Origin: Candidatus Latescibacterota bacterium
GTDB lineage: Bacteria; Krumholzibacteriota; Krumholzibacteriia; WVZY01; JAKEHA01
Direction: 5' to 3'
Length of the DNA stretch: 64,000 nt
Assembly: GCA_963707635.1 (NCBI GenBank)
Contig: OY970173.1
Span: 2,944,001-3,008,000, forward strand
Under the pieces are notes generated by a model. The model was not told where the DNA came from, did not search any database, and saw only the letters and a list, made by a program, of their open reading frames with translations. Positions 17,233-56,429 of the stretch are shown here, in pieces; the stretch's first letter is position 1, and each line of letters opens with the position of its first letter. Position numbers and translations under genes: made by a program.

Positions 17233-17370
17233 GGAGTCCCGATAGTGTGGCGACGAAACGCGGCGCTGTCAAACTCCCCTCGCGGGTGCGGCTCTGTTTT
17301 CCCTTGCGCGGCCTTCCCGCGCTTTGCTACTGTCGGTCTCCCGGGCCGGGGACCGCAGTTCCCCCTTTCG

Positions 17371-17916
17371 ATGCAAGCAAGTCTCCTGTTGGGATTGGGC
17401 CTCGCTGCCCTTGCGGCGTGTTCGTCGGTCGAGGTGCACAACGACTTCGACGTCGAAGCGAACTTCGCCGCCTACCATACCTATGCGTGGATTCCTCAGC
17501 CGGTGAACGCCACCGGGAGCGTGAAGTCCGCACAGGAGCGCAATACGCTGCTGGACAAGCGCATCCGCAGCGCGGTCGATGCGCAGATGGCCGCCAGGGG
17601 GTTTCGCGTCGACGCATCGGCCCCCGACCTGCTCGTGGTCTATCACACGGGCCTCGCCGACAAGGTATCCGTGACCGACTGGGGTTACACCTACGCGGGC
17701 AACTACTGGGGATGGGCCGGACGCGACATCGACGTGTCCACGTACACGGAAGGGACGCTCATCGTCGACCTGGTCGAGGTGGCCAGCAAGGAACTGGTGT
17801 GGCGGGGTTCCGCGACCGGCACGGTGGATCCGTCCGCTTCTCCGGAGAAACGCGAACAGCGCCTGAACGACGCGGTCGCACGCATGTTCGAGAAGTATCC
17901 ACCGCATCAAGACTAG
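17371..17916 (+). CDS. DUF4136-like lipoprotein
   Basis: Lipobox LAAC; DFDVEANFAAYHTYAW, YTEGTLIVDLV...LVWRG, MFEKYPP. Confidence 0.8.
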   Translation: MQASLLLGLGLAALAACSSVEVHNDFDVEANFAAYHTYAWIPQPVNATGSVKSAQERNTLLDKRIRSAVDAQMAARGFRVDASAPDLLVVYHTGLADKVSVTDWGYTYAGNYWGWAGRDIDVSTYTEGTLIVDLVEVASKELVWRGSATGTVDPSASPEKREQRLNDAVARMFEKYPPHQD

Positions 17917-17956
17917 CGGCGAATCGACAGCCAACCACCCGCAGACGAGGTTCCGA

Positions 17957-18598
17957 ATGATTCGCAGACTGGCAGCATGGGTCGTCGTCGTCCTGGCCGT
18001 ATCCGCCACCGGCGCCGCCGCGCAGCAGATGAAGGTGTACCGCTACAACGACCGCGCCGCCAGCCGTTTCGAAGTCGTCCCCTTCGGCGGATACGTCTGG
18101 TCGTTCGGGAAGGATTTCTATTACTCCGCTGCGGGGCAACTCGACTTCAAGGACACGGGCTACTTCGGCGTGAGCCTCGACGTCGGCGTCCACCCGGGCA
18201 CCCAGCTCCGGCTGCTGTACCGGCGGCAGGATACCGAGCTCGAATTCCGCACCGTCTTGAATCTACAGACGGTCACCGGCGCGATCGAGTACTGGCACAT
18301 CGGCGGCCTCACCGGCGTACAACGCGGCAACGTGCTACCCTACGGAATGCTCACCCTCGGTGGCACCCGCTACCTCGCGCAGGACGACGACGTGTGGAAG
18401 TTTTCCATGATCTTCGGCCTCGGGGCCAAGATCTACGCCAGCGGCAAGTTCGGCCTCCAGATTCAGGGCAGCCTCCCGTTCACCTTTGTCGACGGCGGCG
18501 GCTCGATCAGTTGCGGCGGGGGAGGTTGCTTCAGCTCGGTGGGGGGAACCGGCCTCGGCCAGATCGACGTCAGTGGTGGTCTCATTATCGGTCTCTAA
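17957..18598 (+). CDS. Putative outer-membrane beta-barrel protein
   Basis: Signal peptide; alternating amphipathic strands (FEVVPFGGY, FGLGAKIY, SGGLIIGL). Confidence 0.65.
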   Translation: MIRRLAAWVVVVLAVSATGAAAQQMKVYRYNDRAASRFEVVPFGGYVWSFGKDFYYSAAGQLDFKDTGYFGVSLDVGVHPGTQLRLLYRRQDTELEFRTVLNLQTVTGAIEYWHIGGLTGVQRGNVLPYGMLTLGGTRYLAQDDDVWKFSMIFGLGAKIYASGKFGLQIQGSLPFTFVDGGGSISCGGGGCFSSVGGTGLGQIDVSGGLIIGL

Positions 18599-18620
18599 AC
18601 CTCGAAAAGGAGTCAAACGC

Positions 18621-19085
18621 ATGTTGAAGAGAATCGTTCTATTGCTGTCTTTCCTGTCCGTCGTGGGTGCGACCGCGCCGAGCTTCGCGCAGGCGGACCT
18701 GGTCGAGCTGATGCGTTCGGACCTGCGCACGCAGAAGAAAGCCATCCTCACCCAGGCCATGCAGTTGACCGAGGCGCAGTCCGAGGCGTTCTGGCCGGTC
18801 TACAACGAATACGAAGGGGAGCTCATGAAGCTCAACGATGCCCGCCTGGCGCTCATCAAGGACTACGCGTCCAACTACAGCACGATGACCGACGCGGTCG
18901 CGAAGGACCTGGTCAAGCGTTCGTTCAAGTGGCAGGAGGGAAACACCAAGCTGCTGAAGAAGTACTATGGGAAAATGGAGAAGGCGTTGTCGCCGATCGT
19001 CGCGGCGCGCTGGGTCCAGGCCGAGCACGCCATCGACGCCATGATCGACGTCCAGGTCGCGTCGGAAATTCCGCTGATGCCGTAG
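18621..19085 (+). CDS. Exported helical protein (Spy/CpxP-like LTxxQ...FWPVY pattern)
   Basis: AAGGAG RBS, signal peptide ending SFA-Q, MQLTEAQSEAFWPVYNEY. Confidence 0.7.
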   Translation: MLKRIVLLLSFLSVVGATAPSFAQADLVELMRSDLRTQKKAILTQAMQLTEAQSEAFWPVYNEYEGELMKLNDARLALIKDYASNYSTMTDAVAKDLVKRSFKWQEGNTKLLKKYYGKMEKALSPIVAARWVQAEHAIDAMIDVQVASEIPLMP

Positions 19086-19110
19086 TCGTTCCAGTGAACC
19101 AGGAGTGGGC

Positions 19111-19764
19111 ATGAACGGCCTCGCACGGACACTCGCCCGCGTCGCGGCGTGCGCGGCGGCAGCCGGGTTCGCCGTCCTGATGGCGTCCTGCACGCCGGGG
19201 TCCGAGATCACCGCGGCCGAGTCGGACCTCGTGGCGACTCGGTACGAAGGGGCGTTCGACTTCGGAGCGGTCCAGAGCTATGCGCTTCCGGATTCCATCG
19301 TACACATCACGGGGGATACCACCGACGCCGACTCGCGGCTCCTCTCCCGCGACTACGACGATGAAATCATCGCGCAAGTTGCCGGCGAGCTGGACGCTCT
19401 GGGGTGGACGCGGGTCACGGACCCGGGCACGGCGGATATGGTCGTACTCGTGGGAGCCACCGCGCGGGTCGATCTCGCGTCCTATTCTCCCTGGTACGGG
19501 TACTGGGGCTGGTATTACCCGTACCCGGGCGGGTGGGGCTGGTATTACCCGTATCCGGTGGTGTCGTACAACTACACGATCGGCACGCTCGTGATTCTCA
19601 TGAGCGATCCGGATTCGGCCGACCCGAATACCGAGACCTACGAGGTACCATGGGTGGCCGCGATCAACGGCGTTTTGGACGACGCCACCGCCGACAAGCA
19701 GGCTCGGATTTCACACGGCATTGCACAGGCCTTCGATCAGTCGCCCTACTTGTCGGGCGACTAG
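19111..19764 (+). CDS. DUF4136-like lipoprotein (second paralogue)
   Basis: Lipobox MASC; DFGAVQSYALPD, W/Y/P-rich loop, YTIGTLVILM, QAFDQSPYL. Confidence 0.72.
   Translation: MNGLARTLARVAACAAAAGFAVLMASCTPGSEITAAESDLVATRYEGAFDFGAVQSYALPDSIVHITGDTTDADSRLLSRDYDDEIIAQVAGELDALGWTRVTDPGTADMVVLVGATARVDLASYSPWYGYWGWYYPYPGGWGWYYPYPVVSYNYTIGTLVILMSDPDSADPNTETYEVPWVAAINGVLDDATADKQARISHGIAQAFDQSPYLSGD
19504..19553 (+). repeat. Intragenic 20-bp direct repeat with 30-bp period (WGWYYPYP twice)
   Basis: TGGGGCTGGTATTACCCGTA at 19504 and 19534. Confidence 0.85.
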
Positions 19765-19780
19765 CCGGACGGAGACCCCG

Positions 19781-20395
19781 ATGGGAAGACCGGTGCTTGC
19801 CTTCGTTCTGCTGGGTGTGTGCCTGCCCGCCGCCGCGTTCGCGCAGGAGAAGATGGCGGGAGTGACCTATACCATGTCGCTGCCCGGGTCCAACATGGAA
19901 GTGTACATCGACGAGACCAGCTTCCGGGGGGTTCAGGTCTTCGTCCGCGGGACCGCGTGGCGCGGCCGGCCCATCATGGTAGGCGCGACCATGGGCTGGG
20001 AGGTATTCAGCTTCGAGACCAGCGAGCCGATCCAGCTCGACAGCGGGACCATCTCCGGCCAGCAGCGCCGGTACCTCAACGCGGTGCCACTCCTGGCCAC
20101 GCTCCACTACTACCTGGGAAACCAGGACTCGTGGCGGGTGCTCGTCGGCCTCGGCGTGGGTACCATCTACATGCTTCAGACCTTCGAACTCGGCGTCTAC
20201 TCGTTCGACAATGGGACCTGGCAATTCGGGTTGGTACCCGAGGTGGGCGTGCAGATTCCGGTGAGTTCCACGACCGACCTCTATCTGGCCGGCCACTACG
20301 ATTACGCGTTCGAAGCCGGCGAGTCGCTCAACGGAGAAGGAGTGGCGTGGAACTACTGGAGCCTCGACGTCGGGTTCGCCTGGACGGGATGGTAA
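19781..20395 (+). CDS. Putative outer-membrane beta-barrel protein (OmpW/OmpA-like)
   Basis: Signal peptide ending AFA-Q; strands VPLLATLHYY, FGLVPEVGVQIP, WSLDVGFAW. Confidence 0.68.
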   Translation: MGRPVLAFVLLGVCLPAAAFAQEKMAGVTYTMSLPGSNMEVYIDETSFRGVQVFVRGTAWRGRPIMVGATMGWEVFSFETSEPIQLDSGTISGQQRRYLNAVPLLATLHYYLGNQDSWRVLVGLGVGTIYMLQTFELGVYSFDNGTWQFGLVPEVGVQIPVSSTTDLYLAGHYDYAFEAGESLNGEGVAWNYWSLDVGFAWTGW

Positions 20396-23895: not shown

Positions 23896-24576
23896 CTATC
23901 GGTACAGAGACTTGACCTTGCCCCAAGTCGTGGGGGCAACGGGTACGACGGCGTTGAGGGCCAGGATACCGAATCGTGGCGTTCCCTGAAACGCGCCGTC
24001 GCCGTTCTTGTCGGAGAACGCAATCACGCGCATGACCGGCGCGCCCGTCCACGAGCATGCCACCGCCCGAGTATCCGAGTAGAAGCCGGGCGCCACCATC
24101 GTAACGACGTCGAGAGCGGGAAGCGGCGTCGTCCAGCGTTGCAGCGGAAGGCCGTTTACTTCGATCTCCACCACCGCGGATCCAGACTCGGGCCAGAAGC
24201 GCAGACACAGACTCCCCAGCGTGCGCGGAGTGGATGCGAAGCCGTCGACGACCACCTCGAAATCGTTGCGAAACGTCACGAACTCGCTGTTGCCGCTCGG
24301 CGACGGCTCGAAGCCGATGAGGTCGGGCGCCTGGTAGACCTCGAGTGGCAGTCGGTTCTCCGCCCGATCCCAGAGCATCTGGCCACCGATCGCGTAGCCC
24401 TCTTGAAACTTGGGATCCAACGGGGTGAGCAACTGGTAGCGCCCGCTGTCGTATCGGAAGACCGCGGGGCTGCTGGGATAGATGAGAAACGACGGCTCGG
24501 CCGCCGCGGCCACCGCCGACGACGAGCCCAACGGGAGCCACAGGAGAGCGAGCACGATGCCCTTTTTCGTGCCCAT
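23896..24576 (-). CDS. Hypothetical exported protein with a C-terminal VPVAPTTWGKVKSLYR motif
   Basis: GGAGG RBS, signal peptide (MGTKKGIVLALLWLPLG...AAA), beta-rich body. Confidence 0.75.
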   Translation of the reverse strand: MGTKKGIVLALLWLPLGSSSAVAAAAEPSFLIYPSSPAVFRYDSGRYQLLTPLDPKFQEGYAIGGQMLWDRAENRLPLEVYQAPDLIGFEPSPSGNSEFVTFRNDFEVVVDGFASTPRTLGSLCLRFWPESGSAVVEIEVNGLPLQRWTTPLPALDVVTMVAPGFYSDTRAVACSWTGAPVMRVIAFSDKNGDGAFQGTPRFGILALNAVVPVAPTTWGKVKSLYR

Positions 24577-45123: not shown

Positions 45124-45972
45124 CTAGATACGCTCGACGGACCGGGCGTCCATCCAGCCGGACAGCTCGCCGGGCAGATCGATTCTCACCCAGTCGGAAC
45201 GCGCATCGCGCACCGAGAGCACGGTGCCCTCGTGCACCTTGAACTGCACGGTCGCATCGCGGCTCGGCCCGCTGAACACCGGCACCTCCTCGACCACCAC
45301 CACCCCGCGGGAGCGGTCCCTTTCTCCCCGCAGCTTGACCACCGCCGAGGCGGTGAAGATCGCGGTCAGAGCGAACACCAGCGACATGGAGATCGCGACG
45401 TCCTGCGTCATGTCCAGCCCGAAGAGGCGCGCCGGAGAAAGCACCGAGATCCGCCGGTACGCGCCTGCCACCCACGGCGTGCGCCGAAACACCATCACCA
45501 CCGCCAGAACGCACAGGAGCACGTAGAGCGCGCTGGCGAACGCCACCGACTCCGCCACCGTGGTGTCACGGTGCCAGGCCATCGAGGCCCGGCGAATCCC
45601 CGTCGGTTCCGCGACGAGTTGCTTGTCGCGCACCAGTGTGCGCACCAGCGCGAGATTCTCGCGGATGTCTTCGCTGCGTGGGTCCATCCGGCGGGCCCGC
45701 TCGTAATGGAGCACGGCGTGCCCGAGGTCGCCCGCCTTGAAGTAGGCGTTGCCGAGGTTGAAATCGAGGCTCGGATTGACGATGCCGCGCTCGGTCAGCG
45801 CCAGGTAGGTGTCGATCGCTTCCGCGTAGTCGCCGCGCTCGAACGCCGTGTTACCGGCGACGAAGAGCGATTCGGGCGGCGCGGCCGGCGTGTCTACCGC
45901 GAACGACGGCGTGGTCGCGCGCGCCAGAGCGACCCCCACCACCAGGGCCAGGACCCGATTCCGTCGCTTCAC
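45124..45972 (-). CDS. batE: BatE-like TPR + SH3 protein
   Basis: FNLGNAYFKAG, YERA, RENL, two transmembrane helices, VHEGT...WVRI...GW; last gene of the Bat operon. Confidence 0.82.
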   Translation of the reverse strand: MKRRNRVLALVVGVALARATTPSFAVDTPAAPPESLFVAGNTAFERGDYAEAIDTYLALTERGIVNPSLDFNLGNAYFKAGDLGHAVLHYERARRMDPRSEDIRENLALVRTLVRDKQLVAEPTGIRRASMAWHRDTTVAESVAFASALYVLLCVLAVVMVFRRTPWVAGAYRRISVLSPARLFGLDMTQDVAISMSLVFALTAIFTASAVVKLRGERDRSRGVVVVEEVPVFSGPSRDATVQFKVHEGTVLSVRDARSDWVRIDLPGELSGWMDARSVERI

Positions 45973-47798
45973 TTGAGCGCCCTTTCGACCGCGTGGATGG
46001 CATCGCGCGCCGCACTCGCGAGCCTCGTGCCCGCCCCGGCGTCGGCCGGACCCGCGGCGTAACGCGCCGCGTCGCAGGCCTCGATGGCGCCCCGCACCGC
46101 GCCGGCCTGCGCGTCACCAACCTCCCGGGTGGTGAGAAACGACTGGATCGCGTCGCTCGTGAGCCCAGCGACCGGCGCGTTCATCCGATCTGCGAAATAG
46201 CCGAACAGCGCCGCGTGAATCGCCCCGTAGCCGGCCTCCACGTTTCCGGACCGGAACGACTTCTCGGCCGCTCCCAGACGCCGCTCCGCGTCGCGCGCCG
46301 CGCGGCTCGCGCGCGCAAAGCCGACGTCGTCGCGCAGGCGGCGGCGGCGACGCTCCACGGCCAGCGACGCGACCACCCCCAGCGCGGGCAGGGCCTGCAG
46401 GATGAGGAACAACGGCCGGGTATAGAACGGCTCCGGTGCGGCGGCGAGAACCGCGGGCAGCGGATGGATGTACCGGATGTCGCGGTTGAGCACCTCGAAG
46501 TCGTCGCCGCCGCCGGCGTAGATCACCTTGCGGCCGTCTTCGTTGGTGCCGGGCTTGACCTCGATCGCGATCGCGGCCGCCTGCGCCACGTCGTAACGGT
46601 GCCGGCGGGGGTCGTAGTACGCGATCCGCGTCCCCGGCAGCGTGAACTTCCCCTCGGTCTGGGGGACCATCACGTAGTCGAACTTGCGGCGGCCGGACAC
46701 CAGGTAGTCCTTCTTGAACGAGTCGGTCGCGTTTCCGGATTCGTACACCTTGAATCCCTCGAGTCCCGCGAGTTTCGGCGGGGAAAGTGTGCGCATGTTG
46801 CCCACGCCGTTCACCTCGATGGACACGTTGATCGGTTCGCCCACCTGCGCCACCTGCTTGTCCGCGACCAGCGTGACGGTGAGGTCGCTCGCCACCGCGC
46901 CGCCGAAATCGGAGGGTTTGCCCGCGCCGGGCAGCGGCAGCACGACGATCTTCTTCGGCTGGGTGGTGAGGGAGCGTTGCTCGCCGAATCCGCCCCCGCG
47001 AAATCCACGGTTGAAGAAGTCGTCGAAGCGCCCGCGCATGTCGTCGAGAACGAGGTCGACGCGTGCCTCTCCGATCGTGTAGACGCCGGGCGCGGTCGGG
47101 AAATACGCCCGCTTGATCTCGGACACCAGGTAGCGGCGGTTGTGGATGGTGGCGTTGTACTTGTTCTGCGGCGGGAGGTCCTCGACCCAGAACCCCTCCG
47201 CGCTGGGCGGCGAGTAGTTGGGCGCGCGCAGGAGCTCGACCCGGCCGTCGGCGTAGTAGCCGAGCGTCCACGTCACCTGCTCGTTCACATACACGGTGTC
47301 GCGGTCGACGGCGGCGGCGACGAAGATACTCTCGTCCTGCGACGGCAGGGCCGTCCCCGGTGTGCCGGCGCTCGCCGGCGGCGCGTTCGGCGTGGGGATG
47401 GATGCGCCGCCCGCCACCACCTGGACCACGACCGGGTTGGCCGTGTATTGCTTGTCCCCCAGCACGAGGCGAATGGGCTCGATGCGGAAAGTGCCCTCCT
47501 TGCGCGGCTGGAGCACGTAGGAGAACGTGATCGACGAACTGGCCTGTCCGTTGACGAAGCTGAAGTTCTGCGACGTGCCCGCCTCGAACACGTCGAAGTC
47601 CTCGAGGGCAGGAAGCTCCGGCGCGACCGAGCGCCGGAATTTTCCCTCCACCTCGATGGTCAGGACGGCCTGACCGCCGACCTCCACCGTCGCAGGCTCG
47701 ACGCGCGCGCGCACGGTGACGTCGTCCGCGCGCGCGACTCCCGCGCACACCCACGCCGCGAGCGCCAACGTCATGACTCTGGACCGTGCCGATCTCAT
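45969..47798 (-). CDS. batD: BatD-like protein
   Basis: SFVNG, VYVNEQ, FGGAV, VGEP, GVGN, YYDP; operon position. Confidence 0.85.
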   Translation of the reverse strand: MRSARSRVMTLALAAWVCAGVARADDVTVRARVEPATVEVGGQAVLTIEVEGKFRRSVAPELPALEDFDVFEAGTSQNFSFVNGQASSSITFSYVLQPRKEGTFRIEPIRLVLGDKQYTANPVVVQVVAGGASIPTPNAPPASAGTPGTALPSQDESIFVAAAVDRDTVYVNEQVTWTLGYYADGRVELLRAPNYSPPSAEGFWVEDLPPQNKYNATIHNRRYLVSEIKRAYFPTAPGVYTIGEARVDLVLDDMRGRFDDFFNRGFRGGGFGEQRSLTTQPKKIVVLPLPGAGKPSDFGGAVASDLTVTLVADKQVAQVGEPINVSIEVNGVGNMRTLSPPKLAGLEGFKVYESGNATDSFKKDYLVSGRRKFDYVMVPQTEGKFTLPGTRIAYYDPRRHRYDVAQAAAIAIEVKPGTNEDGRKVIYAGGGDDFEVLNRDIRYIHPLPAVLAAAPEPFYTRPLFLILQALPALGVVASLAVERRRRRLRDDVGFARASRAARDAERRLGAAEKSFRSGNVEAGYGAIHAALFGYFADRMNAPVAGLTSDAIQSFLTTREVGDAQAGAVRGAIEACDAARYAAGPADAGAGTRLASAARDAIHAVERALK

Positions 47799-47810
47799 GG
47801 ATGCCCGAGC

Positions 47811-49661
47811 CTACCAGTCCTTGCCCGAATGCTTCAACTTCCGGAACGCCGCCTTGCGGCGCTCGCGCTGGAGCTGCGCTTCGCGGTCTTCGAGCGCCTG
47901 CAGGATGCGCATCGCGTCTTCCTTCGACAACTGCTGCATCTGCTCCTCCGACAGGGGCGACGCCAGCGAGTCGGCCGGAGGCGGCTGCATCCGGGACGAA
48001 TCGGGCTCCGAGGGCTGACTCTGCGAGGAATCCGGCGGCGACGGGTTGCGGTCCCGATCCTGCGACGGTGAAGGCTGCGAGTCCGACCTGGTCGAATCGG
48101 ACCCGGAGCCGGACTGGGAGTCCTCCCTGGACTGATCGCCACCGGAAGACTTCTGCTTCTGCTGCTGCTTGTCCTGTTGCTGCTGCTGCTTCTGGGCCAG
48201 CGCCATTTCGAGATTGTGGCGCGCGTCTTCGTCGTCGGGCAGGTACTGCAACGCCTGGATGTACGACTCGACCGCTTCGCCCGCCCGGCCACTCTTGAAG
48301 AGCGCGTTGCCGCGGTTGTAGAGCATGCGCCCGGTGAGCACGCTGTCGGGCGAGAAGCCGCGCTGGTAGTAGTCGATCGCGCGGTCGTACTTCTTCTGCT
48401 GAAAGAGCGCGTTGCCCCCGTTGTAGAAGACGCCCGGAGCGTTCGCGGGCGGGCGGGCGCTGTCGCCGAGCGCCTGGCGGTAGAGACCGAATGCCTTGTC
48501 GTATTCGCCGTCGGCGTACGCGTGGTTGCCGGAGCGCAGCTTGCCGCGACTGACCGATTTGGCGCTCGCGGGCACCGCGTTGCCGGCGAGCTCCAGCGCG
48601 GCCAGTGCGGTCACGACCAGCGCCCCCGTGTGCAACGGCCGCGTCCGCTCGCCCCCGCGCCGGCTGGCCCGCGTCCCGACCAGTGCGTCGACCAACAGGC
48701 ATCCGAGCGCGAGCGCGAGTGGCACCCAGAAGCGCTCTTTCTTCCGCTCGACGAATTCTCCCTTGATCAGTTTCTTCTGCATGCCCGCAATTTCATCGTA
48801 GAGCACCTTGATCTCGACGCCCTCCGGCGTCGCGGGGAGATACCGGCCATTCCCCGCCGCGGCCACCCGCCGCAGGGAAGCTTCGTCCAGGCGACTCAGC
48901 ACCGTCTCCCCCCTCGCATCCTTCTTGTATCCCGTGACCGCGCCGTCCGTTCCGCGCTCCGGAATCAACTCGCCCTTCGGAGTCCCCATGCCGATGGCGT
49001 ACACGCGGATCCCCTTCTCGGCCGCCGCGGCGGCCGCCCGTTCGGGCTCGCCCTGCTGGTTCTCACCGTCGGTCACCAGGATGATGGCGCGGTCGCCCGC
49101 TTCCGTGGGCCCGAACATGACGACGGCGGTCTCGATCGCGTCTGCGATGGCGGAGCCGGGCTCCGAAATGGTGTACACGTCGACGGACCGGACCAGCATG
49201 AGCGCGGCGGCGTAGTCGACCGTCAACGGACAGAGGGCCACCGCTTCACCGGCGAACGCCACCACCCCGACCCGGTCACCCTGCAGCCCGCCGATCAGAT
49301 CCATGATCTCGCGCTTCGCGCTCTCCAGACGGTTCGGCGGCACGTCCTCGGCCAGCATCGACAGCGAGGTGTCGAGCGCGATCACGACGTCAATTCCTTC
49401 TCTTTCCACTTTGACCAGCTGGCTCCCGAAGCGCGGCCCCGCGATGGATGTGATCAACATCGCGTACGCCAGGACCCACAACATGCCTTTCGCCAGGTGA
49501 CGCCGCCAGCTGAATCCCGGCGCCAGCGCCGGTTCGAGCCCGCGCCCGATGAATGCCGACAGGGCGTTCCGGCGCCCGCGGACGCCGAGTGCCACCAGCA
49601 CGGCCAGGAGCGGAATTCCGGCCAGGCCCCACAACCATAACGGTCTCGAGAACTCGATCAT
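47811..49661 (-). CDS. BatB-BatC fusion (VWA + TPR + Q/S-rich tail)
   Basis: ALDTSLSM MIDAS, PNRL, PLTVD, VTDGEN, YNGGN/YNRGN TPRs, ARHNLE, poly-Q, terminal KDW. Confidence 0.87.
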   Translation of the reverse strand: MIEFSRPLWLWGLAGIPLLAVLVALGVRGRRNALSAFIGRGLEPALAPGFSWRRHLAKGMLWVLAYAMLITSIAGPRFGSQLVKVEREGIDVVIALDTSLSMLAEDVPPNRLESAKREIMDLIGGLQGDRVGVVAFAGEAVALCPLTVDYAAALMLVRSVDVYTISEPGSAIADAIETAVVMFGPTEAGDRAIILVTDGENQQGEPERAAAAAAEKGIRVYAIGMGTPKGELIPERGTDGAVTGYKKDARGETVLSRLDEASLRRVAAAGNGRYLPATPEGVEIKVLYDEIAGMQKKLIKGEFVERKKERFWVPLALALGCLLVDALVGTRASRRGGERTRPLHTGALVVTALAALELAGNAVPASAKSVSRGKLRSGNHAYADGEYDKAFGLYRQALGDSARPPANAPGVFYNGGNALFQQKKYDRAIDYYQRGFSPDSVLTGRMLYNRGNALFKSGRAGEAVESYIQALQYLPDDEDARHNLEMALAQKQQQQQDKQQQKQKSSGGDQSREDSQSGSGSDSTRSDSQPSPSQDRDRNPSPPDSSQSQPSEPDSSRMQPPPADSLASPLSEEQMQQLSKEDAMRILQALEDREAQLQRERRKAAFRKLKHSGKDW

Positions 49662-49685
49662 CGTCCTTCCTCGTCGTGCGCCGCG

Positions 49686-50672
49686 CTACGGCGTCTCGCG
49701 CAGCACGGTCTCTCCCAACCCCAGCTCGAGCACCAGGAGCCCGAGCGCGGGGATGAGGAACCATGTAAACCGATCCGTGTACTCGACGAACGTTTCCGAT
49801 TCGACTTTCGACTTTTCCATTTTATCGATGGTGTCGTAGATCGCCGACAGCTCTTCCCGGTCGGTGGCGCGAAAGTACTCACCGCCGGTCAGCTTCGCGA
49901 TCTTCATTAGAGAGTCTTCGTCGATGTCGACCTCGACCGACACCAAACGACGGCCAAACACCGGGTCGTCGATCGGCATGGGCGCGCGCCCGCGCGTGCC
50001 GACCCCGATCGTGTACACCTTGATCCCAAGCGACGCGGCCACGCGCGCGGCGGTGATGGGGTCGACCATGCCCGCGTTGTTCTGCCCGTCGGTCAAGAGG
50101 ATCGCGATGCGGCTCTTGGCGTCGCTGGTTCGCAGGCGGTTGCACGCGGTGGCCAGCGCCACCCCGATGGCCGTGCCGTCTTCGAGCATGCCGAAATCGA
50201 CCGCGTCGACGAGCTTGGTGAGCAGCGCGTAGTCCAGGGTCAACGGGCACTGCGTGATGGCGTCGGCCGCAAACGCGACCAGGCCGATGCGGTCCTGGCT
50301 TCGCTTGGCGATGAACTCCTTGACCACTTCCTTCGCTACGTGGAGGCGGTTCTTCGGCTCGAAGTCCTGCGCCTGCATGCTGCCGCTGGTGTCGAGCACC
50401 AGCATGATGTCGATTCCTTCCGCGTAGGTGGTGTGCTTCGACCGTCCGGTTTGCGGCCGCGCGAGCCCGACGATCACCAGCGAGAGCACGGCGAGGCGCA
50501 GCGCGAGCACCGCGTGTCGTTTCCACACCGGCGCCCCGAGCCCGGCGGCGAGCATGAGGTCGAGCGACGAGTACGCGACGCTGCGCCGCCGGCCGTGGCG
50601 CAGCGCGTACCACGCGACCAGCGGCACCAGCGCGAGCAGCGAAAGCAGGTACGGGTGCGCGAAGCGGAACAT
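49686..50672 (-). CDS. batA: BatA-like VWA domain protein
   Basis: LARPQ, LDTSGSM MIDAS, PLTLD, GTAIG, LLTDGQNN, YTIGVG, TGGEYFRA. Confidence 0.9.
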   Translation of the reverse strand: MFRFAHPYLLSLLALVPLVAWYALRHGRRRSVAYSSLDLMLAAGLGAPVWKRHAVLALRLAVLSLVIVGLARPQTGRSKHTTYAEGIDIMLVLDTSGSMQAQDFEPKNRLHVAKEVVKEFIAKRSQDRIGLVAFAADAITQCPLTLDYALLTKLVDAVDFGMLEDGTAIGVALATACNRLRTSDAKSRIAILLTDGQNNAGMVDPITAARVAASLGIKVYTIGVGTRGRAPMPIDDPVFGRRLVSVEVDIDEDSLMKIAKLTGGEYFRATDREELSAIYDTIDKMEKSKVESETFVEYTDRFTWFLIPALGLLVLELGLGETVLRETP

Positions 50673-51683
50673 TTACGCGTCTCCCCCCGCGGCGGCCGCG
50701 GCAGTCTCCACCCGCGGCGTGGTGTCGACCACGACCGCGCGGGCGCGCTCGATGGCGGCGGTCGCCGCCGGCCGGTCCGGCACCAGTTTGGCGAACTTGA
50801 CCAGATCCGCCTCTTCCAGCAGCGCGGCGAGGTCGCCCACCGGCGCGTCGCGGCGGTGGATTTCCCGTATCAGCTCCGGCGAGGTTCGATCCATCGCTTC
50901 GACCCCGAAGCGCGCCTCGAGGTAGCGCCGCACCACGTCGACCACGAGTGTGTAGTAGAGCTTGAATTCTCCCCGGTCGAGGTACCCCATCCCCGCGATC
51001 CGTTCCAGCTCGGTGAGCGCCACCAGGTCGGGCGGAAGGCGGACTTCCGCCGCGGCGGTCACCGGCCGGCGCGCGCGACGCCGGCGAATCCACCACACGA
51101 TCCCCGCCGCGAGTGCCAGCACGCCGAGGCCCACCAGCGCCCACAGCAGGTAGTTGGGCGGGAGCGTCCATTGCTCCTTCAGCGGCCGCGTGTCCTTTGC
51201 GTCGAGCGCGATGCGGCGGATCGGCACCTCGATGGCGTCGCTCACCGCATACACGGTGTCCCCCGCGGGAGCGAGGAACGCGAACCGGTTGGCGGGAACC
51301 ACCGACGAGTCGAGGTCGACGGGAATGAAGGTGACTTCGGCGGTCCGTTCGACCCGGCCGCCGGCGGGCTTCTCGCTCCACGCGATCGACACCACCCGGC
51401 AGGTGCCCGCTTCGAGCCGGTCGGGAATCAGCTGGGTGAGCGAGTCAGGAAAGGAAAAACGGTACGCGACGTGGAATCGCTGCCCCACCGTTACCGAGTC
51501 GAAACGCGCGTCGGTGGTGAGCTCGACGGTGTCGAAAGTGGCGGCGCCGGCCGACGACGCGAACATGCACGCTGCCCAAATGAGGCACAAGCGGGTGGCG
51601 CCGATCCGGGGCCCCCGCGGGCAAAGCCCCGTGGGGTGGATCGGCGACAGGACCCGCGCGGTTGCCTCGTGGAGCCGATTCAT
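50673..51683 (-). CDS. Bat operon membrane-anchored protein (conserved position between DUF58 and BatA); start uncertain
   Basis: Beta-rich N-domain, a transmembrane helix, then VRRYLEARFG, MDRTS, ADLVKFAK. Confidence 0.75.
   Translation of the reverse strand: MNRLHEATARVLSPIHPTGLCPRGPRIGATRLCLIWAACMFASSAGAATFDTVELTTDARFDSVTVGQRFHVAYRFSFPDSLTQLIPDRLEAGTCRVVSIAWSEKPAGGRVERTAEVTFIPVDLDSSVVPANRFAFLAPAGDTVYAVSDAIEVPIRRIALDAKDTRPLKEQWTLPPNYLLWALVGLGVLALAAGIVWWIRRRRARRPVTAAAEVRLPPDLVALTELERIAGMGYLDRGEFKLYYTLVVDVVRRYLEARFGVEAMDRTSPELIREIHRRDAPVGDLAALLEEADLVKFAKLVPDRPAATAAIERARAVVVDTTPRVETAAAAAGGDA
51591..51657 (+). repeat. 67-bp palindromic element, copy B
   Basis: GCGGGTGGCGCCGATCCGGGGCCCCCGCGGGCAAAGCCCCGTGGGGTGGATCGGCGACAGGACCCGC; 61/67 identical to the reverse complement of 53634-53700. 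Confidence 0.9.
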
Positions 51684-51698
51684 GTGGAAGGCGCTCGC

Positions 51699-52622
51699 CT
51701 AACGCCGGCGGGCCCGCGACTTGAAGAACACGGACAGCGGCACGATGTAGTCCTGCCCCGCCTCGATGCGCACGCAGTCCACTCCGTGGCGACGGAACAG
51801 ACCCGCCAGCTCCTCGTCGCGACGGCGCGCGTGGGCCGCGAAGCGTTCGCGCGCCGCGCTTGAGCTCAAGTCGACCACGCGCTCGATCTGTGCCTCCTGG
51901 TCCCACACCCGGAGCATTCCCGCCCCTTCGAGCCGGTCCTCGCGCGGGTCGGCGAGGCGGATCGCAACCAGGTCGTGACGGCGCGCCGCCATCGCCAGCG
52001 GGCGCGAGAAATCGGGCGAGAGAAAATCGCTCACCACGAACACGATGGCGCGGCGCTTCTGCACCTTGAGCAGAAACTCGAGCGCCTGCGCCACGCGCGT
52101 GCGGTGGCCGCGCGGCTCGTAGAAGAGGATTTCGCGCACCAGGTGGAGCACGTGGCGCCGGCCCTTGTCGGGTGGAATGTACTCCTCGACGTCGTCGGTG
52201 AAGGCGATGGCGCCGACTTTGTCGTGGTTCTGGATCGCGCTGAAGGCGAGCACCGCGCAGATCTCGGCGGCGGTGTCGAGCTTGGTCTTGTCGGCGGAGC
52301 CGAACCTGCCCGACGCGCTCACGTCGAGCAGGAACATCACCACCAGCTCGCGCTCCTCCATGAAGCGCTTCAGGTAGGGCGTGCCCATGCGCGCGGTCAC
52401 GTTCCAGTCGATGGCGCGAATATCGTCGCCGGGCTGGTACTCGCGCACCTCGTCGAACTCCATGCCCTGGCCCTTGAACACGCTGTGGTATTCGCCCGAG
52501 AAGACGTCGTTCACCAGCCGGCGGGTCGTGATCTCGACGCGGCGGACCTTCTTCAAGATCTCCGCGATGCGTCTCTCTCCCGCCGGCGACGGCGGGTTCG
52601 CGCTACGGGTCGGGGGCGCCAT
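51699..52622 (-). CDS. DUF58 domain protein
   Basis: SVFKGQGMEFDEVREYQPGDDIRAIDWNVTAR, EERE, DVSAS, VSDF. Confidence 0.93.
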   Translation of the reverse strand: MAPPTRSANPPSPAGERRIAEILKKVRRVEITTRRLVNDVFSGEYHSVFKGQGMEFDEVREYQPGDDIRAIDWNVTARMGTPYLKRFMEERELVVMFLLDVSASGRFGSADKTKLDTAAEICAVLAFSAIQNHDKVGAIAFTDDVEEYIPPDKGRRHVLHLVREILFYEPRGHRTRVAQALEFLLKVQKRRAIVFVVSDFLSPDFSRPLAMAARRHDLVAIRLADPREDRLEGAGMLRVWDQEAQIERVVDLSSSAARERFAAHARRRDEELAGLFRRHGVDCVRIEAGQDYIVPLSVFFKSRARRR

Positions 52623-52626
52623 CGGC

Positions 52627-53613
52627 TCAAGGCACCTCGATGTGGTCGAAGATGCGCTGGAGAACGGCCTCGGAGTCCAGGCCCTCCGCCTCGGCTTCGT
52701 AGGTCACGATTACCCGGTGGCGGAGCACGTCGAATCCGACCGCCTTGACGTCCTCGGGCGTGGCGTAGCCGCGCCCGCGCAGGAACGCGTGCGCCCTGGC
52801 CGCTTCGGCGAGGAAGATGGTGGCGCGCGGCGAGCCGCCGTAGGCGATGAGGTGCTTGATGGGAAGCTTGAATGATTCGGGATCCCGCGTGGCAAAAACG
52901 ATGTCGAGGATGTAATTCTTCACCTTCTCGTCCATGTAGATTTCGCGCACCGTCTGCTGCGCCTGCTTGAGGACCTGCGGGTTGATCACCGGGTCGATGA
53001 CCGGCACGTTCCCCGCGGTGACCATCTCCATGATTGCCTTCTCTTCCTCGCGCGACGGGTAGGTGACCTTGAGCTTGAGCATGAAGCGGTCGACCTGCGC
53101 CTCCGGGAGCGGGTAGGTCCCCTCCTGCTCGATCGGATTCTGGGTGGCAAGCACCAGGAAGGGAAACGCGAGCGGATAGGTCTTGTCGCCGATCGTCACC
53201 TGGCGTTCCTGCATGCATTCGAGCAACGCACTCTGCACTTTCGCGGGCGCACGGTTGATTTCGTCCGCCAGAATGAAGTTCGCGAAGATGGGTCCCTTCT
53301 TGGCCGTGAAGGAATGGTCGCGCGGGTTGTAGACCTCCGTGCCGATGAGATCAGCGGGCAGCAGGTCCGGGGTGAATTGGATGCGGCGGAACGTCGTGTC
53401 GATCGACGCCGCCAGCGTCTTGACCGAGAGCGTCTTGGCGAGTCCGGGGACGCCTTCGATGAGCACGTGCCCGTCGCACAGAATGCCGATCAGCAGCCGG
53501 TCCACCAGATAGCGCTGGCCGATGATGGCGCGCTGGATCGACCTCTGCAGGATCGGGATGAAGTGACTCTCGCGCTGGACGCGCTCGTTCAGGGCCTGGA
53601 TTTCGTGCTGCAT
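52627..53613 (-). CDS. moxR: MoxR family AAA+ ATPase
   Basis: EGVPGLAKT, RIQFTPDLLPAD, ADEINRAPAKVQSALLE, ATQNPIEQEGTYPLPEAQVDRF, SPRA; GGAGGTG RBS. Confidence 0.96.
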   Translation of the reverse strand: MQHEIQALNERVQRESHFIPILQRSIQRAIIGQRYLVDRLLIGILCDGHVLIEGVPGLAKTLSVKTLAASIDTTFRRIQFTPDLLPADLIGTEVYNPRDHSFTAKKGPIFANFILADEINRAPAKVQSALLECMQERQVTIGDKTYPLAFPFLVLATQNPIEQEGTYPLPEAQVDRFMLKLKVTYPSREEEKAIMEMVTAGNVPVIDPVINPQVLKQAQQTVREIYMDEKVKNYILDIVFATRDPESFKLPIKHLIAYGGSPRATIFLAEAARAHAFLRGRGYATPEDVKAVGFDVLRHRVIVTYEAEAEGLDSEAVLQRIFDHIEVP

Positions 53614-53633
53614 CGTCACCTCCGTTGAACTAC

Positions 53634-55418: not shown

Positions 55419-56429
55419 TCACCTCACCACCGTGACCCGCCCCTTCAATACGACGTCATTGCCAGTAGCTGCCAGCGACGCGCGGTAGAAGTAGATGCCC
55501 GCCGGGAGCGCCCGCGATGGCTCGAAGCTACCGGACTGCCCAACCGAGACGATTCGCTGGGAACGCCCCACGCGGCGTCCCGCGACGTCGAACAACTCGA
55601 GCGTCAATGTACCGGCCAGCGACGAAGCAAACCCGATGGATACCGTCGAGGCCGGATTTCCAAAAGGACCCACCCATAGCGGGGAGGGGCGGGCGGGCGT
55701 CGTGACGACCGCGGTGGCAGGCGTCTCGTATCGCACCCAACCCGTGTACGATTCGCTGTTCGCCCAGTAGGTCGGATCACCGAACGTCACTCCCTCGGTG
55801 GTCTCGGCCGCTCCGAGCGCGGGCAGCTCCAGCACCAACACCCCGTCGATGCGAAGGGCGGCACCCACACCGCCGGACGCACGCTCGATGCGGTAGACGT
55901 GGTGTTGATCCGTCGTTACAAATGGAGTGGTCAGCGTATTCGACTGACCGTACTGACCGTAGAAGGTGTTCGACAGAAAAATTTCCGTCGTGCCGAGGCC
56001 GACCCAGAATGCCCTCCCGCTCGACATCCGTCACCGGGACGTGTACCCGGGCCGGGGCCAGCCCGAACTCGTGTTGATGCTGTGATCGGGGGCCGAAACG
56101 ATCTTCACGCTCACTTCTACCGCGAAGTCCTGGGTGAAATCGATCCCGAGACCCGAACGTGACCACCAAACGCCGCCACCGACATCCGGCGGAACGTTGA
56201 CGCCGAACCCCAGCGTGGAGAGATATAGACCGTCGGGGCCAACGCTCACGGGGTATGCCGTGGGCGGCATGATGTCTTCCGCCAGTACCCAACCTTGATC
56301 TTGCGGGAACGTGCCCAATGCCGGGTCGTATATCGTAGTCAAGCCCAGCGCAACGTCCGGCGCCAACATGCCGCCCGTGAGCGCGAGCAACAAGACGAAT
56401 AGAATGGACTTCCGAGGAAATGTCTGCAT
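55419..56429 (-). pseudogene. Secreted beta-rich protein with T9SS-type C-terminal domain, interrupted by an in-frame TGA at 56033-56031
   Basis: AGGAGG RBS and signal peptide MQTFPRKSILFVLLLAL. The same frame continues after the TGA to GNPAS...LFDVAGRRV...LPAGIYFYR...GRVTVVR. Confidence 0.72.

What the first reader, a model, noticed from the sequence alone, without database searches (positions are those of the whole stretch)
23896..23949. C-terminal 'VPVAPTTWGKVKSLYR' tail: candidate protein-sorting signal
Seen: a signal-peptide-bearing hypothetical protein ends in a short linker plus the amphipathic WGKVKSLYR at the extreme C-terminus, with no transmembrane anchor. From memory and not verified here, many unrelated exported proteins of uncultured lineages (Krumholzibacteriota, Latescibacterota, Eisenbacteria, Poribacteria) end in (S/T)WGx(I/V)KxxY(R). 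Inference: a targeting or attachment signal for an uncharacterised secretion or surface-display system. It would coexist with the T9SS-type C-terminal domain seen at 55419.
Basis: partly seen in the sequence, partly recalled or inferred. Interest (0 to 1): 0.72.

Follow-up and report, generated by a model that had tools for sequence, protein, structure and literature searches.

The report
TWG tail: portable envelope docking helix
Dozens of unrelated small proteins in this uncultured bacterium and its relatives, mostly predicted to be exported, end in the same 17-residue tail, which resembles the end helix of a predicted lipid-anchored protein encoded beside a predicted very wide outer-membrane pore and likely docks them onto that machinery, pointing to an uncatalogued and still untested protein-sorting route.

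Summary
Observation confirmed. The 226-aa gene at 23896-24576(-) ends in the tail. In this genome 43 reading frames (26 unrelated groups) end the same way; they are mostly small, signal-peptide-like and without a membrane anchor. The motif occurs in 151 of 151 genomes sampled from the phylum (reversed pattern: 2 hits in all) and has no Pfam or NCBIfam model. It is modular: one paralog carries a T9SS domain at the same junction, and two homologs lack it. Likely reader: a conserved operon of a predicted 28-stranded plug-less barrel and NTF2-fold lipoproteins. LipA ends in a built-in TWG-like helix, the best tail match among 2,507 other proteins; LipB usually lacks it. Tandem NTF2 proteins keep the helix after each domain (62 of 101 internal linkers). 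Best reading (0.55): the tail docks on an NTF2 lipoprotein. Rival (0.22): a minimal T9SS signal, since SprA and PorU are equally widespread and the stalk resembles PorU sites. The scan noted this tail before on other DNA (14 findings, at least 12 genomes); one of those notes gave me the lipoprotein lead.

The parts
23896..24576 (-). Gene for a 226-aa hypothetical protein carrying the TWG tail; body has no Pfam or NCBIfam family
   Evidence: 95 homologs at 46-85% identity, three named Ca. Krumholzibacteria hypothetical proteins
24499..24576 (-). Predicted Sec signal peptide (about residues 1-26)
   Evidence: sequence; heuristic; homologs show the same layout before the conserved mature start. 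Not a SignalP result.
23929..23949 (-). Stalk of the tail, residues 210-216; genome consensus (P/T)(V/L)(A/S/P)(T/V)E(S/P)(S/T); here with Pro six residues before W
   Evidence: column counts
23899..23928 (-). Core TWGKVKSLYR, residues 217-226, predicted amphipathic helix
   Evidence: W, K and Y invariant in 43 of 43 genome copies (W and K by the selecting pattern); hydrophobic moment 1.24 at 100 degrees against 0.96 at 170 degrees; the matching segment of LipA is helical in its model
23896..23898 (-). Stop codon directly after the tail
   Evidence: a stop follows at this position in at least 31 of 43 copies
55419..56429 (-). Comparison only: signal-peptide-bearing gene ending in a T9SS type A domain, interrupted by an in-frame TGA at 56031-56033; its linker has the T-A-V motif that resembles the TWG stalk

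Best explanation
The tail is a portable peptide, predicted to form an amphipathic helix, that unrelated small proteins carry at their C-terminus, and after likely Sec export it would dock non-covalently onto an NTF2-fold lipoprotein of a conserved operon that also encodes a predicted 28-stranded plug-less outer-membrane barrel. Steps. (1) Shown: the tail is modular, conserved and enriched on signal-peptide-like proteins. (2) Shown by sequence and model: the operon's first lipoprotein (LipA) ends in a related motif, T-W-G-x-L-R-G-x-L, modelled as a confident helix on an NTF2-like domain; the paralog LipB usually stops right after the last strand; further paralogs carry a cargo-type tail on a longer linker, once per domain. 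(3) Inferred: the helix completes a site on the NTF2 domain, so a helix-less paralog offers an empty site that a cargo tail fills (donor-helix complementation). (4) Inferred, weakest: docking either holds cargo at the outer membrane or hands it through the barrel, beside the T9SS, which handles larger proteins. Tail-bearing NTF2 lipoproteins could chain head to tail.
For: Of 2,507 called proteins without the tail, LipA has the best C-terminal score to a profile of 111 cargo tails (14.7 bits; next 10.4; 99th percentile 4.1). Column match between the LipA end and the cargo tail; intermediates with a short LipA-type linker and a cargo-like helix exist (P0330, P0332). LipA model pLDDT 94.8, helix 165-176 at pLDDT 92-98; NTF2-like, Z 14.5, rmsd 2.1 over 122 residues to 3rob. 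LipA and LipB are paralogs (hhalign probability 99.0). The barrel is found in 143 of 151 phylum genomes, 59 of 61 and 10 of 10 in two other tail-bearing phyla. LipA follows the barrel in 20 of 20 loci chosen across families and a LipB-type gene follows LipA directly in 19 of 20. In 91 tandem-NTF2 proteins, 62 of 101 inter-domain linkers carry the motif against 1 of 101 control windows, which fits a binding element better than a terminal cut-off signal. In this genome the strongest internal copy lies between two NTF2 domains. Barrel model: 28 strands, no plug, pLDDT 90.8; best fold match MtrB, which from my own knowledge sheathes a partner protein. Tail proteins are small (median 211 aa) against 598 aa for T9SS-domain proteins.
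Against: The LipA resemblance is modest: family median 0.4 bits (shuffled -5.9; true tails 35.4) and only 16 of 46 LipA ends exceed the 99th percentile; W is present in 24 of 44. The operon persists in Eisenbacteria-phylum genomes whose motif counts are near background (3-6 matches; LipA and LipB seen in 10 of 11 such loci, the other cut by a contig end), so it has a job apart from these cargo. In several lineages the second lipoprotein has its own tail-like end, so the empty site is not universal. SprA (150 of 151) and PorU (151 of 151) are just as widespread, so profiling does not single out the operon. The tandem-domain set came from a profile that included the tail columns, which enriches for tails. 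LipB is frameshifted twice in this assembly and public contigs did not settle whether that is real. I could not see model coordinates, so where the helix packs is inferred.
Confidence: 0.55

Rival explanations
1. The tail is a minimal T9SS signal: a PorU-type cleavage site (the stalk) plus a short helix read by one of the genome's many PorV-like shuttles. Cargo exits through SprA, is cut in the stalk and is attached to a surface glycan.
For: The genome has 102 TIGR04183 matches, SprA, a PorU-PorV operon and 7 PorV-family frames over the cut-off. Adjacent paralogs (41% identical) carry either the tail or a T9SS domain, switching at the same junction. The stalk matches [TVLI][GAS][VIT] in 29 of 43 tails, and a similar motif lies in 61 of 102 T9SS linkers against 20% of random windows. 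This agrees with the small residue at +1 and aliphatic at +2 of PorU sites (PMC11969387, passages). That paper also shows signals can shrink to 40-55 aa.
Against: Even short T9SS signals are three-stranded beta-sheets read through motifs B, D and E (PMC11969387, passages), and the tail has none of these. Pro occupies the would-be +1 position in 10 of 43 tails here, in this very protein, and in 32 of 94 orthologs; that Pro blocks cleavage is my own knowledge of proteases, not tested for PorU. Internal copies between domains and tails on lipoproteins fit a cleaved signal poorly. It does not explain why LipA's end resembles the tail.
Confidence: 0.22
2. The barrel itself reads the helix as an export signal. 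LipA's end is simply its own export tag, and the NTF2 domains are passengers or plugs rather than receptors.
For: Same operon linkage; a plug-less 28-stranded barrel is wide enough in principle for small folded domains (size argument is my inference); cargo is small.
Against: LipA's helix is modelled at pLDDT 92-98 within the single chain, which suggests it packs on its own domain. Internal copies after each NTF2 domain would be useless as terminal export tags.
Confidence: 0.1
3. The tail needs no dedicated reader: the short cationic amphipathic helix binds outer-membrane lipid, lipopolysaccharide or a generic scaffold, as an S-layer-homology or dockerin module does.
For: Amphipathic, W/K/Y/R-rich composition; tandem double tails occur (P0088, L207); one cluster of tail genes lies behind a gene with a weak dockerin-type match (E 4e-4, below cut-off).
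Against: Position-specific near-invariance of T, W, G, K and Y and of stalk spacing across unrelated families and three phyla is more than lipid binding usually demands (inference); the link to one lipoprotein family is unexplained.
Confidence: 0.1
4. The tail is a periplasmic degradation or processing tag, or a functionless remnant spread by gene duplication.
For: A few copies sit on short or broken frames that look like gene remnants.
Against: Retained in 94 of 95 orthologs with synonymous variation and in 151 of 151 genomes; internal copies are kept.
Confidence: 0.03

Closest known systems
T9SS type A C-terminal domain (TIGR04183), read by PorV/SprA and cut by the PorU sortase
   Same: Follows a Sec signal peptide on unrelated cargo, is exchangeable with the tail at the same junction, has a similar linker motif, and occurs in the same genomes.
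   Different: About 17 residues and predicted helical rather than a 40-90 residue beta structure; no TIGR04183 match; often Pro at the would-be cut site; also internal and on lipoproteins; cargo much smaller. No in-frame tail-plus-domain protein was seen among the matches listed for 151 genomes.
Tripartite C-terminal sorting signals (LPXTG/sortase, PEP-CTERM/exosortase, MYXO-CTERM); layout recalled from my own knowledge
   Same: Short conserved motif at the end of many unrelated exported proteins, many copies per genome.
   Different: No transmembrane helix or basic tail after the motif (0 of 43 with a hydrophobic segment); no match to those models.
Donor-strand complementation in type V pili (Fim/Mfa of Porphyromonas gingivalis)
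   Same: Lipoprotein subunits whose C-terminal element is self-complementing in one form and fills a neighbour's groove in another (PMC13655056, passages); this is the logic I propose.
   Different: Helix on an NTF2-like fold instead of strands on a double beta-sandwich. Polarity would be reversed: there the anchor and stalk carry donor strands and the tip lacks them; here the lipid-anchored LipB lacks the donor and the cargo carries it. No filament is shown.
MtrB porin (PDB 6r2q) and LptD-LptE, wide barrels that house a partner protein
   Same: MtrB is the best structural match to the barrel (Z 18.1, 460 aligned); a plug-less barrel encoded with lipoproteins.
   Different: rmsd 9.4 A, TM about 0.43 and 8-9% identity, so only the general barrel shape is shared; no Pfam or NCBIfam family for the barrel; the partners are NTF2-like, not cytochromes or LptE.
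NTF2-like superfamily (SnoaL/DUF4440, LinA, scytalone dehydratase)
   Same: LipA fold (Z 12-14.5); a weak DUF4440 hit on a paralog; some solved members align through the C-terminal helix (3b8l to residue 173, 2chc to 176).
   Different: Lipoproteins of 7-16% identity to solved members, no catalytic role shown; a peptide-receptor role is inferred.

Membership tests
T9SS type A CTD | Match to TIGR04183 / FlgD-type Ig domain at the C-terminus | tested here: not met
   no match for the window protein or any of 113 tails, while 102 other sites in the genome match
T9SS type A CTD | Folded beta-sheet signal of at least about 40 residues with motifs B, D and E | tested here: not met
   conserved part is about 17 residues; the related segment of LipA is helical; criterion from PMC11969387 passages
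T9SS type A CTD | N-terminal Sec signal peptide on the cargo | tested here: met
   heuristic positive on 26 of 34 called genes here and 56 of 64 complete frames elsewhere
T9SS type A CTD | PorU-type cleavage motif in the linker | tested here: inconclusive
   motif-like in 29 of 43, but Pro at the +1 position in 10 of 43 and 32 of 94 orthologs
T9SS type A CTD | SprA, PorV and PorU encoded in the genome | tested here: met
T9SS type A CTD | Binding to PorV, cleavage and glycan attachment | not testable with these tools
Tripartite sorting signals (LPXTG, PEP-CTERM, MYXO-CTERM) | Motif followed by a transmembrane helix and a basic tail | tested here: not met
   no hydrophobic segment after residue 35 in 43 of 43; a stop follows the motif directly
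Tripartite sorting signals (LPXTG, PEP-CTERM, MYXO-CTERM) | Cognate sortase, exosortase or rhombosortase gene | not tested
   not searched
Type V pilin (Fim/Mfa) | Double beta-sandwich pilin fold with donor beta-strands | tested here: not met
   LipA is confidently modelled as a single NTF2-like domain with a terminal helix
Type V pilin (Fim/Mfa) | Export as lipoprotein precursor | tested here: met
   Cys after a hydrophobic leader in 80% of LipA and 98% of LipB rows; lipidation itself is inferred
Type V pilin (Fim/Mfa) | Protease-triggered exchange and polymerisation | not testable with these tools
   needs experiment
MtrB/PioB porin or LptD | Family HMM match | tested here: not met
   no Pfam or NCBIfam match for the barrel
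MtrB/PioB porin or LptD | Structural identity with the solved barrel | tested here: inconclusive
   MtrB best at Z 18.1 but rmsd 9.4; LptD lower at Z 12.6
NTF2-like superfamily (LipA/LipB) | Alpha+beta cone fold | tested here: met
   Z 14.5, rmsd 2.1 over 122 residues; LipB by profile homology to LipA

The most novel reading that the evidence does not exclude
A second outer-membrane protein export route running beside the T9SS in Krumholzibacteriota, Eisenbacteria and related phyla: a 28-stranded plug-less barrel gated by NTF2-fold lipoproteins recognises a 17-residue C-terminal helix by helix exchange and passes small folded proteins to the surface, where tail-bearing NTF2 lipoproteins chain head to tail as a display scaffold.
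Probability: 0.3. Interest if true: 0.93.

Novelty: categorically new. Interest (0 to 1): 0.8.

Why it matters
The tail marks over 1% of this genome's proteins and is present in every genome of the phylum that I sampled, yet it has no curated model and my searches of the open literature found no description. It would let annotators assign an envelope destination to thousands of hypothetical proteins in uncultured, widespread phyla. A 17-residue peptide with a small soluble receptor is also directly testable in E. coli or in vitro and could serve as a protein-display tag. If the T9SS rival holds, the rating falls to a new variant of a known kind, but it would still be the shortest T9SS signal that I know of and the first helical one.

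Tried and rejected
DNA repeat or cassette site: rejected, synonymous codons vary. Family look-ups for the tail, window protein, barrel and lipoproteins: nothing above cut-off; no PDB sequence matches the tail profile; Atlas hits for the window protein were all under 0.9 and for the barrel were unnamed barrel clusters, commonest taxon Bacteroidota, with a low recognition score, leads only. Tail directly in front of a T9SS domain (reported in scan notes for Poribacteria): none in this genome; a gapped DNA pattern gave matches in 31 of 151 genomes, and those I could read were tails followed by a stop or unrelated sequence (the pattern needs a P-N-P motif within 81 bases, so it can miss cases). 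Phylogenetic profiling: not discriminating, because tail, barrel, SprA and PorU all sit in nearly every genome and I obtained no outgroup without the tail (the phylum reached through a record titled Gemmatimonadota had only 10 genomes, all tail-rich). SprA was missed by PF14349 but found by TIGR04189. GldM and GldN not found; the controls did not ring over cut-off, so absence is not shown. Genes next to SprA: the downstream lipoprotein is an M28 peptidase, not a receptor candidate. Type V pilus analogy: my recalled polarity was wrong; corrected from PMC13655056. Sequencing runs: no RNA holder listed; contigs showed no indel row at the two LipB frameshifts and none of the listed pieces spans them. 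Cluster look-up for taxon range named only one Eisenbacteria record. Paper searches with no hits; with listings whose titles and abstract starts were off topic. My gene caller mis-set several starts and missed 9 of the 43 tail frames, so lengths and signal counts are approximate.

Full report
Observation. The gene at window 23896-24576 on the minus strand encodes 226 aa and ends in VVPVAPTTWGKVKSLYR followed by a stop. It has a signal-peptide-like start and no later hydrophobic segment, and no Pfam or NCBIfam family above cut-off. The window lies in a 3.2-Mb single-contig genome, 96% complete. Three homologs of this protein and three of a lipoprotein discussed below are named Candidatus Krumholzibacteria, so the host is likely a member of Krumholzibacteriota.

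The motif is a genome-wide protein feature. A slightly wider pattern gives 43 terminal copies with consensus (P/T)(V/L)(A/S/P)(T/V)E(S/P)(S/T)TWG(A/R)(V/I)K(A/S)LYR. Y is invariant although the pattern does not ask for it, and synonymous codons vary. With tails removed the 43 fall into 26 groups; recognisable bodies include CHRD and DUF7450, and most have no family (which scanned 39 proteins, about two thirds of them tail proteins). A crude signal-peptide heuristic fires on 26 of 34 tail frames that my gene caller called, against 409 of 1,509 other proteins of 120-400 aa (p=5e-9) and 64 of 95 T9SS-domain proteins; counting all 43 frames, some of which look like remnants, it is 30 of 43. Median length is 211 aa against 598 aa for T9SS-domain proteins. 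In loci from other genomes 56 of 64 complete frames are positive and 74 bodies form 46 groups. The tail is kept in 94 of 95 homologs of the window protein.

Range. A DNA pattern for the core matches 151 of 151 genomes sampled from the phylum, about 2,500 matches, while the reversed pattern gives 2. In the phylum of an Eisenbacteria record a looser pattern gives tens of matches in most of 61 genomes, but about a quarter sit near the control level. A third small phylum has 13-41 matches in 10 of 10 genomes. Kin are not independent, so these are descriptions, not statistics.

Modularity. One tail protein and the adjacent gene share a domain at 41% identity; one continues into the tail and the other into a T9SS domain, switching at the same junction. 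Two other tail proteins have homologs in the genome (57% and 33% identical) that stop where the tail would begin. The genome has 102 TIGR04183 matches, SprA, a PorU-PorV operon and several further PorV-like genes. The stalk resembles the linker motif before T9SS domains (29 of 43 tails; 61 of 102 linkers; 20% background) and the PorU site preference described in PMC11969387 (passages read). Against a shared cut, Pro fills the would-be +1 position in 10 of 43 tails and 32 of 94 orthologs, and the shortest T9SS signals in that paper are still three-stranded sheets. PMC11285876 (passages) likewise stresses a folded domain. I saw no in-frame tail-plus-domain protein in this phylum.

Candidate reader. 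A scan note (e1-9875132) mentioned a small lipid-anchored protein beside a very wide pore. Looking for that, I found at genome 371617-376832 a 656-aa barrel followed by four paralogous lipoprotein genes. LipA ends in a built-in TWG-like motif 13 residues after the last strand's W in 28 of 44 rows. LipB stops right after that strand; in this assembly it carries two compensating frameshifts. LipC has two domains, each followed by a cargo-type tail, and LipD has one domain plus a tail, 21-23 residues from the same W in most homologs. The barrel is found in 143 of 151 genomes with a single-protein query, nearly always once. LipA follows it in 20 of 20 loci picked across families and LipB follows directly in 19 of 20. 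The same order holds in Eisenbacteria and the third phylum. AlphaFold2 gives LipA an NTF2-like fold at pLDDT 94.8 with the TWG-like segment as helix 165-176, and the barrel 28 strands with no plug at pLDDT 90.8. The best structural match of the barrel is MtrB at rmsd 9.4, a likeness of shape only. None of these proteins has a curated family above cut-off. The lipoprotein family is large: 4,635 representatives at E up to 0.001.

Tests of the link. With a profile built from 111 cargo tails (the two NTF2-lipoprotein tails dropped), LipA has the highest C-terminal score of the 2,507 called proteins that lack the tail (14.7 bits, next 10.4). Across the family 16 of 46 LipA ends exceed the 99th percentile against 1 of 86 LipB ends; 43 of those 86 were database proteins chosen as tailless, so only the 43 locus-derived rows test this. 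True tails score far higher (median 35.4), so LipA's end is a distant variant. In 91 proteins with two or more NTF2 domains, 62 of 101 inter-domain linkers carry the motif against 1 of 101 same-length windows inside the domain, and 79 of 91 also end in it. The set is the top 150 hits of a profile that included tail columns, which inflates these shares, but the repeated unit is plainly domain plus helix. A motif kept deep inside a chain is better read as a binding element than as a terminal signal that is cut off.

Results against this reading. The operon is intact in genomes with few or no detectable cargo tails. In several lineages the second lipoprotein carries a tail-like end. SprA (150 of 151) and PorU (151 of 151) are as widespread as the barrel, so co-occurrence favours neither reader. 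The state of LipB in this strain is unresolved; nearby SecD and methionyl-tRNA synthetase genes also appear split (names recognised from memory) and contigs from two studies lack one base that this assembly has just upstream, which points to assembly indels but does not prove them.

Mechanism. Most likely (0.55) the tail is a portable copy of LipA's terminal helix. After Sec export it would fill the equivalent site on a helix-less NTF2 lipoprotein associated with the barrel, holding cargo at the outer membrane or passing it through. Shown: modularity, conservation, operon anatomy, sequence likeness, predicted folds. Inferred: binding, complex formation with the barrel, and whether the outcome is anchoring or export. 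Rivals: minimal T9SS signal (0.22), direct reading by the barrel (0.10), generic lipid or scaffold binding (0.10), degradation tag or remnant (0.03). A hybrid, with helix-guided export followed by PorU cleavage in the stalk, is not excluded.

Comparison and novelty. It works like a C-terminal sorting signal and, on my model, like donor-strand complementation in type V pili, but with a helix, another fold and reversed polarity (PMC13655056, passages). It fails the defining tests for T9SS type A domains, tripartite signals and type V pilins. Searches of the held library found no description (no hits; off-topic listings; PMC11495043 passages mention the phylum but not T9SS or C-terminal signals). 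The library lacks most subscription journals and I read no supplements, so an obscure description could exist. The scan's own notes report the tail from 14 findings in at least 12 other genomes and the barrel operon from three more; they are leads, not support.

Verdict. Real, widespread and uncatalogued; sorting or docking role very likely; reader probably the barrel-NTF2 operon but untested. Interest 0.8.

Noticed in passing
   Followed up: partly
L018:7522-8200 (G000 373522-374200, -): LipB carries two compensating frameshifts, one at a G run; its three pieces match intact P0023 at 160 of 198 residues. Public contigs did not settle it.
   Followed up: partly
L018:1663-3349 and L018:16423-17972: Genes that read as SecD and methionyl-tRNA synthetase (names from memory) are split in two, and several T9SS-domain frames are abnormally short, suggesting frequent indel errors in this assembly.
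   Followed up: no
L016:9877-20000 (G000 231877-241895, -) and L031:3427-10916 (G000 1369427-1376916, +): Two PorV-like genes sit in operons with genes that read as ExbB/ExbD-type (one also with TonB-like and TPR genes), recognised from memory and not by HMM, while GldM and GldN were not found. A TonB-type motor might stand in for the T9SS motor.
   Followed up: no
G000 genome-wide (L006-L010 and others): Nine PorV-family frames, seven over the cut-off; several lie directly after a large protein ending in a T9SS-type domain, as if each were a dedicated shuttle.
   Followed up: partly
L015:2878-10587 (G000 2276875-2284587, -): Downstream of PorU-PorV lie two unknown membrane proteins, an NHL-repeat protein, an 1,102-aa barrel-like protein with only weak SprA similarity and a POTRA/Omp85-type protein.
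   Followed up: partly
L014:9494-16822 (G000 2725491-2732822, -): Three tail genes follow a gene with a weak dockerin-type match (NF041540, E 4e-4, below cut-off) and precede a second C25 peptidase with a T9SS-type end. Members of the 8-member tail group are homologous to the N-terminal domain of a T9SS-domain protein at 1324692.
   Followed up: partly
G000 2805530-2805691, 781960-782322, 792591-793073, 1046182-1047090: Tail copies on short, broken or read-through frames; the first is nearly the same as the end of the gene at 224832. They look like remnants of lost cargo genes.
   Followed up: partly
L023:8950-9900 (G000 2808950-2809900, -): A BNR-repeat protein ends in a variant tail without W and G (T-M-S-E-I-K-A-L-Y-R), scoring 33.5 bits on the genome profile.
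   Followed up: partly
P0088; L207:2774-3478: NTF2 lipoproteins with two tails in tandem at the C-terminus.
   Followed up: no
P0267, P0276, P0279, P0283, P0295, P0296, P0357: NTF2 lipoproteins of about 490 aa in which an extra stretch of roughly 100 residues separates the two NTF2-plus-tail units.
   Followed up: no
G000 1488590-1503980 and 2610582-2615438: Four large C25 (gingipain-like) peptidase frames, three in tandem, most ending in a T9SS domain.
   Followed up: no
window 45124-53619 (-): A MoxR ATPase, DUF58 and vWA/TPR gene run that reads like a Bat operon (names from memory, not tested).
   Followed up: no
window 17327-20395 (+): A run of five small signal-peptide-like genes, including two small barrel-like proteins and two lipoprotein-like proteins, three genes from the finding; none carries the tail.
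   Followed up: no
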